25,110 nucleotides of DNA. Source: a virus. Taxonomy: Duplodnaviria > Heunggongvirae > Uroviricota > Caudoviricetes. Position 1 is the first letter of the stretch. The number at the start of each line of letters is the position of its first letter. The translations under genes and the position numbers were made by a program. Below, in pieces: positions 8,277-16,901 of the stretch. The stretch is taken from the IMG/VR virus record IMGVR_UViG_2648501787_000018; one strand, written 5' to 3'. The notes beneath the pieces were generated by a model. That model worked only from the letters and a program-made list of their open reading frames with translations, had not been told where the DNA came from and searched no databases.

Positions 8277-9329
8277 TTATTTCCCCACCAGTTCACTTAC
8301 CTCTTTCACCGTCTGATTAAACCGCTCTGACTCAAGTTCAACACCTAACGCCCGACGCCCCAGCGCCATTGCTGCTTTTATTGTGGAACCGGATCCCATA
8401 AAGAAATCAGCAACCAGATCACCAGGGCGACTACTGGCATTGATTATTTGCCGGAGCATATCCGCCGGTTTCTCGCACGGATGTTTACCCGGGTAGAACT
8501 GAACGGGTTTATGCGTCCAGACATCGGTATAAGGCACGGAGACTGATACGGAGAAATAGCGCCGGAGAGATTTAAACTCATCCAGCAATTCAGAATATTT
8601 GCGATTCAGTGAATCATAAGATGCCACCAGCTGGTGGTGTGGTTGTTCCAGTTGTTGTTCCTGAAACTTCTCTGCCGCTATACGGGAAAACAGTGCCTGT
8701 AACTTCCGATAGTCAGCCTCATTCGGCAACTGCCACTGACTGGCACCAAACCAGTGGGAAACCATATTTTTCTTACCTGTGGCTTCGGCAATTTGTTTTG
8801 CCGTTATACCCAGTTCGGCACGAGCATCCCTGAAATACGATATCAGCGGTGCCATTATGTGCTGTTTGAGTTCCCTTTCTTTTGCTGCATAGCCGTCACT
8901 TTTGCCGCGATATGGCCCCTGGTAATGTTCAGCAAACAGAACGCGCTCTGTGGCAGGAAAATATGCGCGCAGACTTTCTTTATTACACCCATTCCAACGT
9001 CCGGACGGCTTCGCCCAGATGATATGGTTAAGCACGTTGAAACGTTCACGCATCATGATCTCAATATCAGATGCCAGGCGATGCCCACAGAACAGATAAA
9101 GGCTTCCGGCAGGTTTTAACACCCGCCAGAACTGGGCCAGACAGTGGTCCAGCCACTTAAGGTAATCTTCGTCCCCTTTCCACTGATTGTCCCAACCGTT
9201 GGGTTTCACCTTGAAGTACGGCGGATCGGTAACAATCAGGTCAATGGAATCATCAGGCAGGGACTGAATAAAATGCAGGCAATCAGCGTTGATTAAATCA
9301 ACACTGTTTATTTTTACAGTATTTTTCAT
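8277..9329 (-). CDS. DNA methyltransferase, beta-class amino-MTase (N6-adenine or N4-cytosine), orphan
   Basis: 350 aa; catalytic motif IV (IVTDPPYF) near the N-terminus and AdoMet motif I (ADFFMGSGST) near the C-terminus, the beta-class order. No restriction endonuclease gene adjacent. Confidence 0.8.
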   Translation of the reverse strand: MKNTVKINSVDLINADCLHFIQSLPDDSIDLIVTDPPYFKVKPNGWDNQWKGDEDYLKWLDHCLAQFWRVLKPAGSLYLFCGHRLASDIEIMMRERFNVLNHIIWAKPSGRWNGCNKESLRAYFPATERVLFAEHYQGPYRGKSDGYAAKERELKQHIMAPLISYFRDARAELGITAKQIAEATGKKNMVSHWFGASQWQLPNEADYRKLQALFSRIAAEKFQEQQLEQPHHQLVASYDSLNRKYSELLDEFKSLRRYFSVSVSVPYTDVWTHKPVQFYPGKHPCEKPADMLRQIINASSRPGDLVADFFMGSGSTIKAAMALGRRALGVELESERFNQTVKEVSELVGK

Positions 9330-9479: not shown

Positions 9480-9707
9480 TTACTGGCAGCGTCTGAATTT
9501 ATTCCCGTACCCGCCGTTATCCTTCGCCAGCCCCGCCAGAACTAACTGAGTCAGTATTAACTGGCACCGGGCTTCGCTTACTCCGGTAGTTCTCGTCATC
9601 ATGCGTGGCGTTACCCACTTGTCAGCAGGTAAGAAATGAAGGACTGCGGCGGCGGTTTCTGTCATATCTTGCTGTTTTAGCATGTCTTTTTCCCTTCTGG
9701 TTAACAT
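9480..9707 (-). CDS. Hypothetical small protein (75 aa or shorter)
   Basis: Track ORF between a tR'-like terminator and the methyltransferase; weak RBS; alternative starts at Met9 and Met15. Possibly HTH-like; not recognised. Confidence 0.3.
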   Translation of the reverse strand: MLTRREKDMLKQQDMTETAAAVLHFLPADKWVTPRMMTRTTGVSEARCQLILTQLVLAGLAKDNGGYGNKFRRCQ

Positions 9708-9802
9708 GACATACCAATAACTCTTGTCTAAAAAGCCAGCAAGATAAAAAGTCAGTATTCACGACCACCAGCGTGTTTACTGTACTGCACCAAGTTTACA
9801 GG

Positions 9803-9829
9803 TACAAAAAACCCGCTCAGTGGCGGGTT
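9803..9829 (-). terminator. Rho-independent terminator (tR'-like) in the late operon
   Basis: Hairpin AACCCGC-n6-GCGGGTT; on the minus strand it is followed by TTTTT. Confidence 0.5.
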
Positions 9830-9959
9830 TAAGTTGTGTGGCGAAGTAACCACTCTTAACACACTAATAGCATTTTTGTTATAACACAAGTAGCTCATTC
9901 AGTATTTTTAGAATCTTGACTTTCTTAAGCACGGCGAACTCTGAATACCAAACATAAAA

Positions 9960-10577
9960 TCAATTATCTTCCAGGCCGGATGCTATCAACGAAAGTCTCT
10001 CAAAAAACGCTGTAGCAGCCTTGTCCAAAGTTGAATAAGTACTGTATTCTCCGTGTTCGGGACCAACCACTACCCATGGTCGTCTTTTTGGGATTCGGGA
10101 TTTCTCAGAAATCACTGTTCCAGATATACCAATATCAATTGTTACACCTGTTATTATTTTCTCTTCATCTCTTTCCCTGAACTCAATTGCCATAAATGCC
10201 GTTTTTTTTCGTTTCCCGTTTTTAAAAAAATCAAATAAAGCAAAGCGATGCTCATTAAAATCAACACCCCATCGTCCTTCAGGATAAAGGGCATGAAAGT
10301 TGTCATTTACGCTCTGCATCGTCTCATAAGCTTTAACTTCTAAATCTCCATAGTGCATAGATACCGCGCAGGAGTTACTGGGTAACTGTATTTTCCCAAG
10401 ATTGAAAACCTTTACTGCTCCAGAACTATGGCATCTTGCCCGCAACTTATCCCCATTTATACTAATCGGAGAAATATTCCTTAATGTTCCGGGCTGGCTC
10501 CCTCCTAAGTAAACGACTGTTAAAGATTGCTTATTTTCAATTGCATCAACTAATACATGCTCTACATTTTTATCCAT
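9960..10577 (-). CDS. Hypothetical protein (about 205 aa) with WYL-like N-terminal motif; AT-rich moron between Q and the lysis genes
   Basis: Best start is ATG 10577-10575 with GGGAGG 6 nt upstream; the track's upstream ATG at 10604 lacks an RBS. LTVVYLGGSQPGTLRNISPISINGDKLRARCHSSGAVKVFNLGKIQL resembles the WYL-domain pattern (Y...R.i.P..l....a.c....F.L..I). C-terminal 120 aa unrecognised. Confidence 0.5.
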   Translation of the reverse strand: MDKNVEHVLVDAIENKQSLTVVYLGGSQPGTLRNISPISINGDKLRARCHSSGAVKVFNLGKIQLPSNSCAVSMHYGDLEVKAYETMQSVNDNFHALYPEGRWGVDFNEHRFALFDFFKNGKRKKTAFMAIEFRERDEEKIITGVTIDIGISGTVISEKSRIPKRRPWVVVGPEHGEYSTYSTLDKAATAFFERLSLIASGLEDN

Positions 10578-10652
10578 AATAACCTCCCAATGAACAGGTA
10601 TCATCAGGAGGTTATTATAAAATATGATTATTTACTTTGATTGAATTTATTA
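10578..10652 (-). promoter_or_regulatory. Putative late promoter (pR'-like) region immediately downstream of Q
   Basis: Minus strand contains TATAAT with an upstream TTCAAT at about 20 bp spacing; position matches lambda pR'. Not a strong consensus. Confidence 0.3.
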
Positions 10653-11024
10653 CTATATGTAACAATCAATTTCTAAAGATACCCCCAACATTGCCAGACA
10701 ACCGTCAATAAACCCTTCAGCTTTCTGCAGTCTGATAACAACCTGATTAAGTGATATCCCCAGTTTTACCCCCAACGCCCGTAATGTAACCCCATACACA
10801 TAATACATTTCCAGTAATTCGTATTGATACGGTTCCTTTTTCTTAAGAACTGTCATCGCAGAGCTAATGATCAGGCCATCGTCATCGCTACATTGCGGGC
10901 GGGATTTTACTTTCGAAGAAATTAATCCCTTAAAACCTGCAGCAACAGATGACCATTCCACATCCTCGTGATTATTTGCCACCCATGCCCCCCAACGTTC
11001 AAGAACCATTTGAATATCACGCAT
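10653..11024 (-). CDS. Late-gene antiterminator Q (QuuD/Q82-like small Q family)
   Basis: MRDIQMVLERWGAWVANNHEDVEWSSVAAGFKGLISSKVKSRPQCSDDDG matches what I recall of E. coli QuuD. ATG at 11024 has GGAG 8 nt upstream; the track's TTG at 11039 is less likely. Confidence 0.8.
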   Translation of the reverse strand: MRDIQMVLERWGAWVANNHEDVEWSSVAAGFKGLISSKVKSRPQCSDDDGLIISSAMTVLKKKEPYQYELLEMYYVYGVTLRALGVKLGISLNQVVIRLQKAEGFIDGCLAMLGVSLEIDCYI

Positions 11025-11041
11025 CAACTTTCTCCACAAAA

Positions 11042-16302: not shown

Positions 16303-16901
16303 AATGGCAGCCTCGGTAGCAAGCTTAAAAAACTCACCACATAAGACGCCAATCATAGAGGTGGTGAGACGTACAGAGTTGGCGTTACCGGCGGCTACCC
16401 TTACCGGCGCATCTTGCGATGCCCCTGTACGCCCCACCATAATTTGGGCGTGACAAAATAATGCGTACAAAAAAACCGCATCTACGCGGTTGTACGCGGT
16501 AGCCTTCTCCAGGACGCCAATCCCGGCACCCGCTTTATAAGGTGCCTGAACAGTGTAACGTCCCGGAATGGCAGAATCAATGTGCTGGTGGTCCTTCACA
16601 CTCAACAAAATCACGCCTGAATTTCCACAAAGGACTAAAGCACTCATGCGGGTAGTCTTTGCGAAGATAGATAACGCGCTGTGTTTCTGGCTCCCAACGA
16701 ATAACATGGACATAAAGCCCTCTTCCGTCACGAAACCAGCGGTTAAGTTCCTGCACAACTCGCCCCCCACAGTCAGGTAAAGTTCTCTGTGGTTACTTAC
16801 AGCCAGGTGATTTGGTAATCTGCATTCATGCCGTAACAACAGGTGTTCAGCGACACTGACCACCAGCTGTTGCGACAAACGGTTATTTGCCGTTAAACTG
16901 T

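What the first reader, a model, noticed from the sequence alone, without database searches (positions are those of the whole stretch)
9960..10577. AT-rich moron with a WYL-like domain between antiterminator Q and the lysis cassette
Seen: a 205-aa ORF with strong RBS lies directly downstream of Q and a putative late promoter and upstream of a tR'-like terminator (9803-9829), with markedly lower GC than its neighbours. Its N-terminus has a WYL-like pattern; the C-terminal 120 aa match nothing I recognise. Established: the Q-to-lysis interval in lambdoid phages is a classic moron site, and WYL domains are ligand-sensing modules common in defense-system regulators. Inference: a prophage-carried sensor or effector expressed on induction.
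Basis: partly seen in the sequence, partly recalled or inferred. Interest (0 to 1): 0.6.

Follow-up and report, generated by a model that had tools for sequence, protein, structure and literature searches.

The report
Prophage gene with DNA-sensing WYL domain
A real, selected 205-aa gene in an E. coli lambda-like prophage encodes a WYL ligand-sensing domain that has no DNA-binding head and is joined to an unknown second domain; it belongs to a large unstudied family that mostly sits beside phage repressor and integrase genes, so it is a candidate lysogen-expressed sensor in phage-versus-phage conflict, with no function yet shown.

Summary
On the minus strand at 9960-10577 there is a 205-aa ORF with a GGAGG Shine-Dalgarno (SD) ribosome-binding site. 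It lies 75 nt downstream of antiterminator Q and upstream of an intrinsic terminator (9805-9830). Its GC is 39%, against 48% for the window.

There is no HTH. The C-terminal alpha/beta domain has no significant match and does not share DriD's WCX topology. The protein therefore belongs to a new "WYL-X" architecture, with about 950 clusters at 50% identity.

The gene is under purifying selection (dN/dS 0.24). It is strictly linked to one Q allele. Elsewhere it recurs directly after cI-like repressors, next to integrases and RexA, in a defence island and in a cassette array.

"Expressed on induction from pR'" is not supported as stated. The transcript should end at the terminator without Q. A 20-bp hairpin buries the SD and AUG. 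The true pR' may lie downstream of the ORF.

The most likely role is a lysogen-expressed ssDNA sensor acting in exclusion or defence. This is inferred, not shown.

The parts
9960..10577 (-). WYL-X gene (205 aa plus stop); PGAP WP_000360286/WP_000360285, phrog_8498
   Evidence: dN/dS 0.24 against allele 2
10386..10577 (-). N-terminal WYL (Sm-like) domain, residues 1-64: helix 3-14 and strands 19-23, 31-41, 44-49, 54-59. Motif Y23-x-G25-G26-S27-x-P29-G30-x-x-R33, then R46-A47-R48-C49 in place of W-Y-L, then K56-x-F58-x-x-x-K62-I63
9963..10319 (-). [quoted passage not shown] Conserved F118-K119-N120-G121-K122, R166-P167-W168, A187, F191
10574..10620 (-). 20-bp inverted repeat / RNA hairpin that buries the SD (10587-10583) and the AUG (10577-10575)
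   Evidence: -25.6 kcal/mol, z -7.2, 0 of 200 shuffles as stable. Conserved in allele 2: -18.9 kcal/mol, z -3.9
10614..10641 (-). Candidate promoter P1: ATCAAA (10641-10636), 16-nt spacer, TATAAT (10619-10614). The -10 hexamer lies inside the 5' arm of the hairpin. Followed by GATGAT (10605-10600), a -10-like element of the xAxxAT type
   Evidence: Read from the sequence. Allele 2 has TGAACA-16-TACAGT at the same place, and CTCCTGATGATAC is identical in both alleles. RNA starting at G10605 has no significant structure. The consensus scan did not list it, so this is an inference
10653..11039 (-). Antiterminator Q (PF06530). PGAP start gives 123 aa (10653-11024). The 3' half (up to about 10865) belongs to the low-GC module inherited with the WYL-X gene
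9861..9886 (-). Candidate promoter P2' (possible true pR'): extended -10 TGtTATAAC (9886-9878), followed by the -10-like hexamer TAGTGT (9866-9861), then the conserved leader GTTAAGAGTGGTTACTTCGCCACACAACTT
   Evidence: TTGTGTTATAACAAAAA is identical in allele 2, and allele 2 has TAATCT in place of TAGTGT. PhiR40_1 has TACAAT ... TATGCT in the same position. The segment is absent from Q82-type phages that share only the terminator. Inference
9805..9830 (-). Intrinsic terminator (AAACCCGCC-ACTGA-GCGGGTTT followed by a T run), shared by many lambdoid phages that carry different Q genes
   Evidence: 100% identical in mEp460, Ayreon and Stx2c phages. Annotated as a terminator in Ayreon
9480..9707 (-). 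Conserved small ORF (phrog_331, weak wHTH-like hits). It is the first gene after the terminator and is not specific to WYL-X phages

Best explanation
The ORF is a genuine accessory gene of a lambdoid E. coli prophage. It encodes an HTH-less two-domain protein, here called WYL-X. Shown: the N-terminal 64 residues form a WYL (Sm-like) domain, and three of the residues that DriD uses to hold the phosphate backbone of single-stranded DNA are conserved in it. The C-terminal 120 residues form a family-specific alpha/beta domain with no detectable catalytic motif. Inferred: the protein binds ssDNA (or another single-stranded nucleic acid) in the WYL pocket, probably closed off by the conserved basic and aromatic FKNGK and RPW motifs of the X domain. 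It then signals by protein-protein or oligomeric interaction, not by binding an operator. Inferred from context: it is made in the lysogen and acts in conflict with other phages or mobile DNA, as a sensor for superinfection exclusion or abortive infection. In this window it is transcribed independently of Q and ends at the terminator at 9805-9830. A 20-bp hairpin blocks translation of read-through transcripts coming from Q. A transcript starting at the TATAAT inside the hairpin's 5' arm would lack the anti-SD arm and could be translated.
Against: No experiment on any family member was found. No PADLOC model other than generic WYL matches the protein. There is no recognisable effector domain and no conserved acidic or histidine residues in X. 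Several contexts are uninformative (L007, L008, L021, L149). In E. coli the gene sits next to Q, not next to cI. Whether P1 fires in a lysogen is untested, and the promoter scan did not list it. Mapping of the second half of the ligand site (K56, F58, K62) onto DriD or CapW residues rests on the structural superposition, not on a residue-level alignment. Guilt by association in phage regulatory regions is weak evidence.
Confidence: 0.42

Rival explanations
1. Split WYL regulator. WYL-X is the ligand-sensing subunit of a neighbouring small DNA-binding regulator (a cI-like repressor elsewhere, Q here). It would make prophage induction or late-gene timing respond to ssDNA, as CapW, BrxR and DriD do within a single chain.
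For: HTH-WYL fusions are the canonical architecture (PMC11662680). WYL-X follows a small HTH gene with a gap of only 8-23 nt in L081, L084, L027 and L148. In E. coli two diverged WYL-X alleles (about 70% identical) each travel with their own Q allele (about 80% identical).
Against: Many members have no adjacent HTH gene (L005, L007, L083, L134, L147). The cI in L148 has its own Peptidase_S24 RecA-responsive domain, so it needs no extra sensor. TM-anchored variants and the RexA-linked variant do not fit a soluble co-repressor. The Q-WYL-X linkage can be explained by physical adjacency alone.
Confidence: 0.18
2. Counter-defence. The protein would be a phage-made ligand sponge or decoy that mops up the ssDNA signal or caps ssDNA ends. 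Host WYL repressors (CapW for CBASS, BrxR for BREX) and other ssDNA-triggered defences would then stay silent during induction or infection.
For: It keeps the ligand pocket of the WYL regulators but lacks their output domain. It lies in the lytic-direction transcription unit downstream of Q in E. coli. WYL repressors do respond to phage-derived or damage-derived ssDNA (PMC11662680; PMC13622015).
Against: Its position in cI operons, next to int and RexA, in a defence island and in a cassette array is typical of lysogen-expressed defence cargo, not early anti-defence genes. ssDNA is polymeric and abundant, so stoichiometric sponging is implausible. The SD-burying hairpin argues against high expression from lytic read-through transcripts.
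Confidence: 0.13
3. The gene is the first gene of the late operon, transcribed from pR' just downstream of Q, and it matters mainly after induction.
For: P1 lies where lambda has pR'. It has TATAAT followed 8 nt later by GATGAT, comparable to lambda's AACGAT pause element (this comparison rests on my own recall of the lambda sequence). Both elements are kept in allele 2.
Against: Even in this model the ORF precedes the first terminator. It would therefore be made from a constitutive pR' without Q, that is, also in the lysogen. A second promoter plus -10-like element immediately upstream of the terminator is conserved in allele 2, and PhiR40_1 has an equivalent arrangement there. In PhiR40_1 a reverse-oriented gene separates Q from that element, which makes it the better pR' candidate. 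The element is absent from Q82-type phages that share only the terminator.
Confidence: 0.2
4. Decaying or hitch-hiking ORF with no function.
For: One of 52 copies is interrupted by an IS5-family element. The gene is present in only 73 of 5426 complete E. coli genomes.
Against: dN/dS is 0.24 at dS 0.79. There are about 950 clusters with conserved motifs in both domains. 51 of 52 copies are intact at 99% identity or more.
Confidence: 0.03

Closest known systems
CapW / BrxR (wHTH-WYL-WCX repressors of CBASS and BREX)
   Same: The WYL domain superposes at 0.9-1.3 Å with 20-29% identity. The conserved Ser and Arg/Lys pocket residues are kept. The expected ligand class is ssDNA. Both are associated with phage-defence loci.
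   Different: No N-terminal wHTH and no linker helices. The C-terminal domain is not detectably WCX. It cannot bind an operator, so the output must differ. It is a stand-alone phage or mobile-element cargo gene, not the regulator of an adjacent operon.
DriD / PafBC (WYL transcription activators of the DNA-damage response)
   Same: Best sequence-profile match. The family motif 'YhGGsqpGavReIaPi' aligns with DriD 'YEGGSTPGRTREVTPL', which contains the ssDNA contacts Tyr168, Ser172 and Arg178.
   Different: DriD's WCX topology is beta-alpha-beta-beta-alpha-beta-alpha and forms a four-helix dimer interface. Here the order is helix, three strands, insert, two strands, helix. There is no HTH. The W-Y-L tripeptide is replaced by A-R-C.
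WYL1 (Cas13d accessory protein) and small stand-alone phage WYL/Sm proteins
   Same: These are WYL proteins that act without being classical operator-binding factors. BFVD holds many 60-120-aa phage WYL/Sm-like proteins that match the N-terminal domain only.
Lambda cI-rexA-rexB and other lysogen-expressed exclusion cargo
   Same: Same genomic niche in many family members, immediately downstream of cI on the same strand. One variant (L027) pairs a membrane-anchored WYL-X with a true RexA and no RexB.
   Different: No sequence or fold relation to RexA or RexB. In this window the gene sits by Q, not by cI. No exclusion phenotype is known.
Lambdoid morons in the Q-to-lysis interval (for example stx, or the lipoprotein-like ORF of Stx2c phages and Ayreon)
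   Same: A variable slot bounded by a shared terminator, deviant GC, and presence/absence polymorphism among related prophages.
   Different: The gene is inherited as one block with the 3' half of a specific Q allele (52 of 52 genomes). It carries an unusual SD-burying hairpin with a -10 hexamer inside it.

Membership tests
WYL domain (Pfam PF13280 / Sm-like fold) | Scores above the Pfam gathering threshold | tested here: not met
   16.5 bits against a cut-off of 21.8, E = 0.0085, residues 8-64. However, 46 of 127 family members hit at E < 0.01, best 4.8e-8, and PGAP names some copies 'WYL domain-containing protein'.
WYL domain (Pfam PF13280 / Sm-like fold) | N-terminal helix plus a five-stranded, strongly bent beta-sheet, closer to solved WYL domains than to other Sm/SH3 folds | tested here: met
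WYL domain (Pfam PF13280 / Sm-like fold) | Conserved ligand-pocket residues (Tyr/Ser/Arg of beta2 and its loop; basic and aromatic residues of the last strand) | tested here: met
   Y23, S27 and R33 align to DriD Tyr168, Ser172 and Arg178 and are 91-100% conserved. The K56-x-F58-x-x-x-K62-I63 motif is conserved, but its equivalence to the R-x-F-x-x-x-R-I pattern of WYL domains was recalled from memory and not aligned residue by residue.
WYL domain (Pfam PF13280 / Sm-like fold) | The W-Y-L tripeptide itself | tested here: not met
   Replaced by A47-R48-C49 (A in 126 and C in 113 of 127 members). Degenerate versions are known: NYL in DriD and WHV in CapW.
WYL domain (Pfam PF13280 / Sm-like fold) | Binds ssDNA, ssRNA or another ligand | not testable with these tools
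   Needs EMSA or fluorescence polarisation with purified protein.
wHTH-WYL-WCX regulators (CapW, BrxR, DriD, PafBC) | N-terminal winged HTH DNA-binding domain | tested here: not met
   The WYL domain starts at residue 3. No HTH model hits any of the 127 members.
wHTH-WYL-WCX regulators (CapW, BrxR, DriD, PafBC) | C-terminal WCX dimerisation domain | tested here: not met
Moron (autonomous cargo unit in a phage genome) | Present or absent between otherwise related phages, with deviant base composition | tested here: met
   The slot holds different genes in PhiR40_1, Ayreon and Stx2c phages. 1463 genomes share the terminator side, but only 51 (allele 1) plus 22 (allele 2) carry WYL-X. GC is 0.393 against 0.476.
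Moron (autonomous cargo unit in a phage genome) | Own promoter and own terminator | tested here: inconclusive
   P1 (ATCAAA-16-TATAAT) is promoter-like and kept in allele 2, but it is unverified and the scan did not list it. The terminator is the shared one at 9805-9830.
Known anti-phage defence systems (PADLOC-DB v2) | Match to a model of a described or candidate defence protein | tested here: not met
   Only generic Cas-associated WYL models match, at E = 0.0015-0.0085. Neighbours in other loci do match: RexA, GmrSD_N, HEPN and AbiTii.

The most novel reading that the evidence does not exclude
WYL-X is a new, widespread, single-gene ssDNA sensor carried by temperate phages and other mobile elements. 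It would be expressed in lysogens and would trigger exclusion of incoming phage or ssDNA elements through its private X domain. The output may go through membrane partners, as suggested by the TM-fused variants, the membrane-protein neighbour and the pairing with RexA in place of RexB. In E. coli its translation would be insulated from lytic read-through by a hairpin that contains its own promoter.
Probability: 0.3. Interest if true: 0.75.

Novelty: new variant of a known kind. Interest (0 to 1): 0.5.

Why it matters
All characterised WYL proteins in bacteria couple ligand sensing, mostly of ssDNA, to an attached output such as an HTH, an RHH or a helicase. An abundant family that keeps the pocket but replaces every known output with a private domain, and that rides in the lysogeny modules of many unrelated temperate phages, would show a new way of using the ssDNA signal in phage-phage or phage-host conflict. 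It is a tractable candidate: one gene, 205 aa, native to E. coli, with two natural alleles and a natural IS knock-out. The hairpin-with-internal-promoter arrangement is a testable example of how cargo genes can be insulated from the transcription programme of their carrier phage. It also bears on where pR' really lies for this Q family.

Tried and rejected
1. Single-sequence phmmer against PDB found nothing. NCBIfam gave nothing useful.
2. Megablast against phage genomes: no sequenced phage record carries this ORF. Only the terminator side matches. tblastn finds two distant phage homologues and one plasmid homologue.
3. Foldseek against BFVD found no full-length relative. The afdb50 library was not available, so the X domain was never compared with AFDB.
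5. The search for related loci with the 127-sequence alignment failed for lack of a conserved stretch. Smaller alignments worked.
6. A conserved partner gene: none was found across about 22 contexts. The downstream 75-aa wHTH-like ORF is not specific, because it also occurs in phages without WYL-X.
7. The consensus promoter/terminator scan listed neither P1, P2' nor the terminator. These were read by eye and supported by comparison between alleles.
8. Literature searches for the accession numbers, the PHROG id, or phage-encoded HTH-less WYL proteins found nothing.
9. I could not obtain a residue-level alignment of the last WYL strands to CapW or BrxR, because only the DriD alignments were printed.

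Full report
**1. What is at the coordinates**

- The minus strand carries an ORF at 9960..10577: 205 aa, ATG start, GGAGG at 10587-10583 five nt upstream of the ATG. A 214-aa reading from 10604 exists, but PGAP and every homologue use the 205-aa start.
- It begins 75 nt after the stop of an antiterminator Q gene (10653-11039; PF06530, E = 1.6e-47).
- It ends 130 nt before a GC-rich hairpin plus U-run (9830-9805; -13.8 kcal/mol). That hairpin is 100% identical in phages mEp460, Ayreon and the Stx2c phages, and Ayreon annotates it as a terminator.
- After the terminator come a 75-aa ORF, an N6/N4 DNA methyltransferase, and then the holin, endolysin and Rz genes.
- GC is 0.393 for the ORF, 0.476 for the window and 0.556 for the upstream DUF968 gene. 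The low-GC tract (0.383) spans 9830 to about 10900, so it includes the 3' half of Q.
- The window is an E. coli lambdoid prophage, 99.9% identical to strain 219 over the 1001-bp stretch searched (window 9700-10700).

Two additions follow below: the hairpin and the extent of the low-GC block.

**2. It is a real gene**

- An exhaustive HMMER search with a five-sequence profile found 953 clusters (50% identity) at E ≤ 1e-3, and 190 at E ≤ 1e-30. Nearly all are 187-210 aa and match end to end.
- E. coli carries two alleles about 70% identical in protein. Allele 1 (this window) occurs in 51 of 5426 complete genomes. Allele 2 occurs in 22.
- Between the alleles dS is 0.79 and dN is 0.19, giving dN/dS 0.24. 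The ratio is 0.125 in the N-terminal domain and 0.26 in the C-terminal domain.
- One of the 52 copies that carry this Q allele is split by an IS5-family element. The gene is therefore dispensable for prophage carriage, as expected for cargo.

**3. What the protein is**

*N-terminal WYL domain*
- Alone, the sequence hits Pfam WYL below threshold: 16.5 bits against 21.8.
- Family-level evidence is clear. 46 of 127 aligned members hit WYL at E < 0.01, best 4.8e-8.
- The family profile hits the solved WYL proteins DriD (E = 6e-5), BrxR (3.5e-3) and CapW (8.5e-3).
- An AF2 model built on 127 sequences has mean pLDDT 86, and 94-98 in the N-terminal domain.

*Ligand pocket*
- The HMM alignment pairs the family motif Y23-x-G-G-S27-x-P-G-x-x-R33 with DriD Y168-E-G-G-S172-T-P-G-R-T-R178.
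- In the DriD-ssDNA crystal structures, Tyr168, Ser172 and Arg178 hydrogen-bond the phosphate backbone (PMC9186387).
- In the family, Y23 is kept in 126 of 127 members, S27 in 116, R33 in 127, K56 in 126, F58 in 120 and K62 in 115.
- The eponymous W-Y-L is A-R-C here. This is degenerate, as in DriD (NYL) and CapW (WHV).
- The ligand pocket is therefore the most conserved part of the protein. ssDNA is the ligand shown for DriD and CapW and reported for PafBC. Binding by this protein is an inference.

*No HTH, and an unknown C-terminal domain*
- There is no HTH. The WYL helix starts at residue 3, and no HTH model hits any member.
- Residues 87-205 form a second, confidently modelled domain. [quoted passage not shown]
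- DriD's WCX domain has the order beta-alpha-beta-beta-alpha-beta-alpha, which is different.
- A profile of this domain finds no PDB chain.
- In the 5.8-billion-protein set, the same profile finds only members of the same family.
- Its conserved residues are F118-K119-N120-G121-K122, R166-P167-W168, A187 and F191. These are basic and aromatic, with no acidic or histidine set that would suggest catalysis.
- I call the architecture WYL-X. It is not a member of the wHTH-WYL-WCX regulator family, because two of that family's defining features were tested and not met.

**4. Variants and neighbours elsewhere**

*Fusions*
- BRCT plus WYL-X in the Enterobacter soli P2-like element pENTAS02.
- One or two N-terminal TM helices in P0127, P0143 and P0145. 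Zn-ribbons plus two C-terminal TM helices in P0092.
- An extra domain of about 150 aa fused C-terminally in Pseudoalteromonas phage PY3, L085 and P0068 (phrog_31886). In L134 it is encoded by a separate gene immediately upstream of WYL-X, which is a Rosetta-stone link.

*Contexts (about 22 non-E. coli loci examined)*

| Context | Loci |
|---|---|
| cI-like repressor immediately upstream on the same strand | L018-20, L081, L084, L117, L027, L148 |
| Integrase immediately downstream | L134, L136 |
| HTH, membrane protein, BRCT-WYL-X, integrase | E. soli pENTAS02 |
| HTH, TM-WYL-X, RexA (PADLOC E = 1.9e-59), integrase, no RexB | L027 |
| Next to Rha | L012, L016, L083 |
| Defence island (AAA_15, FRG/HepT, GmrSD_N, RiboL-PSP HEPN, NERD) | L005 |
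| Same-strand cassette array with Phd/ParE and AbiTii | L147 |
| Uninformative chromosomal sites | L007, L008, L021, L149 |

- In L148 the repressor has HTH_3 plus Peptidase_S24 and the gap to WYL-X is 17 nt.
- No single partner gene is conserved.
- The dominant niche is the part of temperate-phage genomes that is transcribed in the lysogen, where exclusion and defence cargo such as rexAB is classically found. That generalisation is established knowledge. Applying it to this family is an inference.

**5. How it is probably expressed in this window**

*Linkage to Q*
- The 3' half of Q, the 75-nt spacer and the ORF are one inherited block.
- The Q 3' half plus spacer occurs in 52 complete genomes, always at 99% identity or more, and always followed by the ORF (51 intact, one hit by an IS).
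- Allele 2 is likewise preceded by its own Q allele, about 80% identical in protein.

*Hairpin*
- The spacer and start region form a 20-bp hairpin at 10620-10574 (-25.6 kcal/mol, z = -7.2, none of 200 shuffles as stable). It pairs the SD and the AUG.
- Allele 2 keeps the hairpin (-18.9 kcal/mol, z = -3.9), with changes that preserve pairing.

*Candidate promoter P1*
- Inside the 5' arm lies a perfect TATAAT (10619-10614), with ATCAAA 16 nt upstream. Allele 2 has TGAACA-16-TACAGT at the same position.
- An RNA starting 7-9 nt downstream, for example at G10605, lacks the anti-SD arm and folds no better than shuffled sequence.
- I therefore infer that read-through transcripts from Q are translationally silent, or are RNase III substrates, and that P1 transcripts are translatable.

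*Candidate promoter P2'*
- A second promoter-like element lies after the ORF: TGtTATAAC at 9886-9878, followed by the -10-like hexamer TAGTGT at 9866-9861 and a conserved leader running into the terminator.
- TTGTGTTATAACAAAAA is identical in allele 2 while the flanks diverge.
- PhiR40_1 has TACAAT ... TATGCT at the same place, and there a reverse-oriented gene separates Q from this element.
- Q82-type phages that share only the terminator lack the element.
- A promoter followed by a -10-like pause element is the hallmark of Q-dependent late promoters. This is established for lambda and phage 82 and is recalled from my own knowledge.
- P2' is therefore at least as good a pR' candidate as P1.

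*Consequence*
- Under either reading the ORF's transcript stops at 9805-9830 without Q.
- "Expressed on induction" is therefore not what the anatomy predicts. Constitutive low-level expression, including in the lysogen, is more likely. None of this has been mapped experimentally.

**6. Mechanism**

- Best-supported (confidence about 0.4): a lysogen-expressed sensor of single-stranded nucleic acid. It would bind ssDNA in the WYL pocket, possibly clamped by the FKNGK and RPW surface of X, as DriD clamps ssDNA between WYL and WCX. It would act through protein-protein or oligomeric output to exclude or abort incoming phages or mobile DNA.
- Steps shown: the fold, the pocket conservation, the absence of an HTH, purifying selection, and the contexts.
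- Steps inferred: the ligand, the timing of expression, and the defence role.

**7. Novelty and verdict**

- No paper, PADLOC model or PHROG annotation assigns a function.
- PGAP already labels some copies "WYL domain-containing protein", so the domain call itself is not new.
- What is new: the two-domain HTH-less architecture as a large family, its lysogeny-module niche, its fusions, and the hairpin-with-promoter arrangement.
- I rate it a new variant of a known kind, with interest 0.5. It is a solid, experimentally tractable lead, not a surprise in itself.

Noticed in passing
window 16357-16444 (-) and 16469-16545 (-): C4 antisense RNA (RF01695, 68.4 bits) and the IsrK Hfq-binding RNA (RF01394, 60 bits) lie side by side. 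C4 is the P1/P7-type antisense immunity RNA. IsrK is the Gifsy-1-type dual-function RNA. Both lie in the early regulatory region of this prophage.
   Followed up: no
window 10574-10620 (-): A 20-bp hairpin buries the SD and AUG of the ORF and has a perfect TATAAT inside its 5' arm. It is conserved in the diverged allele 2. It may be a device that makes only promoter-proximal transcripts translatable, or an RNase III site.
   Followed up: partly
window 9861-9886 (-): An extended -10 (TGtTATAAC) is followed by a -10-like hexamer and a conserved leader directly upstream of the shared terminator. It is conserved in allele 2, and PhiR40_1 has an equivalent arrangement. It is a candidate for the real pR' of this PF06530-type Q, which would place the cargo slot between Q and pR'.
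   Followed up: partly
L027 5639-9363: The prophage lysogeny operon reads HTH (112 aa), TM-anchored WYL-X (292 aa), RexA (PADLOC E = 1.9e-59), integrase, with no RexB. The membrane-anchored WYL-X occupies the place of RexA's membrane partner.
   Followed up: partly
L134 4299-4988 and L023 2006-3115 (Pseudoalteromonas phage PY3 gp2); also L085 and P0068: An unannotated domain of about 150 aa (motif EHW.F..Y.FRDA.DIK ... W.Q..LKF..GD) is fused to the C-terminus of WYL-X in some phages. In others it is encoded by the gene immediately upstream. It has no Pfam or PADLOC hit.
   Followed up: partly
L146 2408-2833 (Stx2c phage) and L003 2708-3133 (phage Ayreon): In phages with a 250-264-aa Zn-finger Q, the same slot upstream of the shared terminator carries a 141-aa ORF with a lipoprotein-like signal sequence (MKKVLIAAIGFCLVGCAG).
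   Followed up: no
window 9480-9707 (-) and 8277-9329 (-): A 75-aa ORF (phrog_331; weak MarR_2/TrmB-like wHTH hits) always precedes an N6/N4 DNA methyltransferase (PADLOC MTase_II, E = 1.6e-152) between the terminator and the lysis genes. This pair is conserved in many lambdoid phages whatever the cargo in the Q slot.
   Followed up: no
L147 199-9459 (GCA_040102365.1 contig): WYL-X sits in a long array of small cassettes, all on one strand, with Phd/ParE, DUF4365, DUF2441, several GNAT acetyltransferases and AbiTii. The layout resembles a chromosomal integron cassette array.
   Followed up: no
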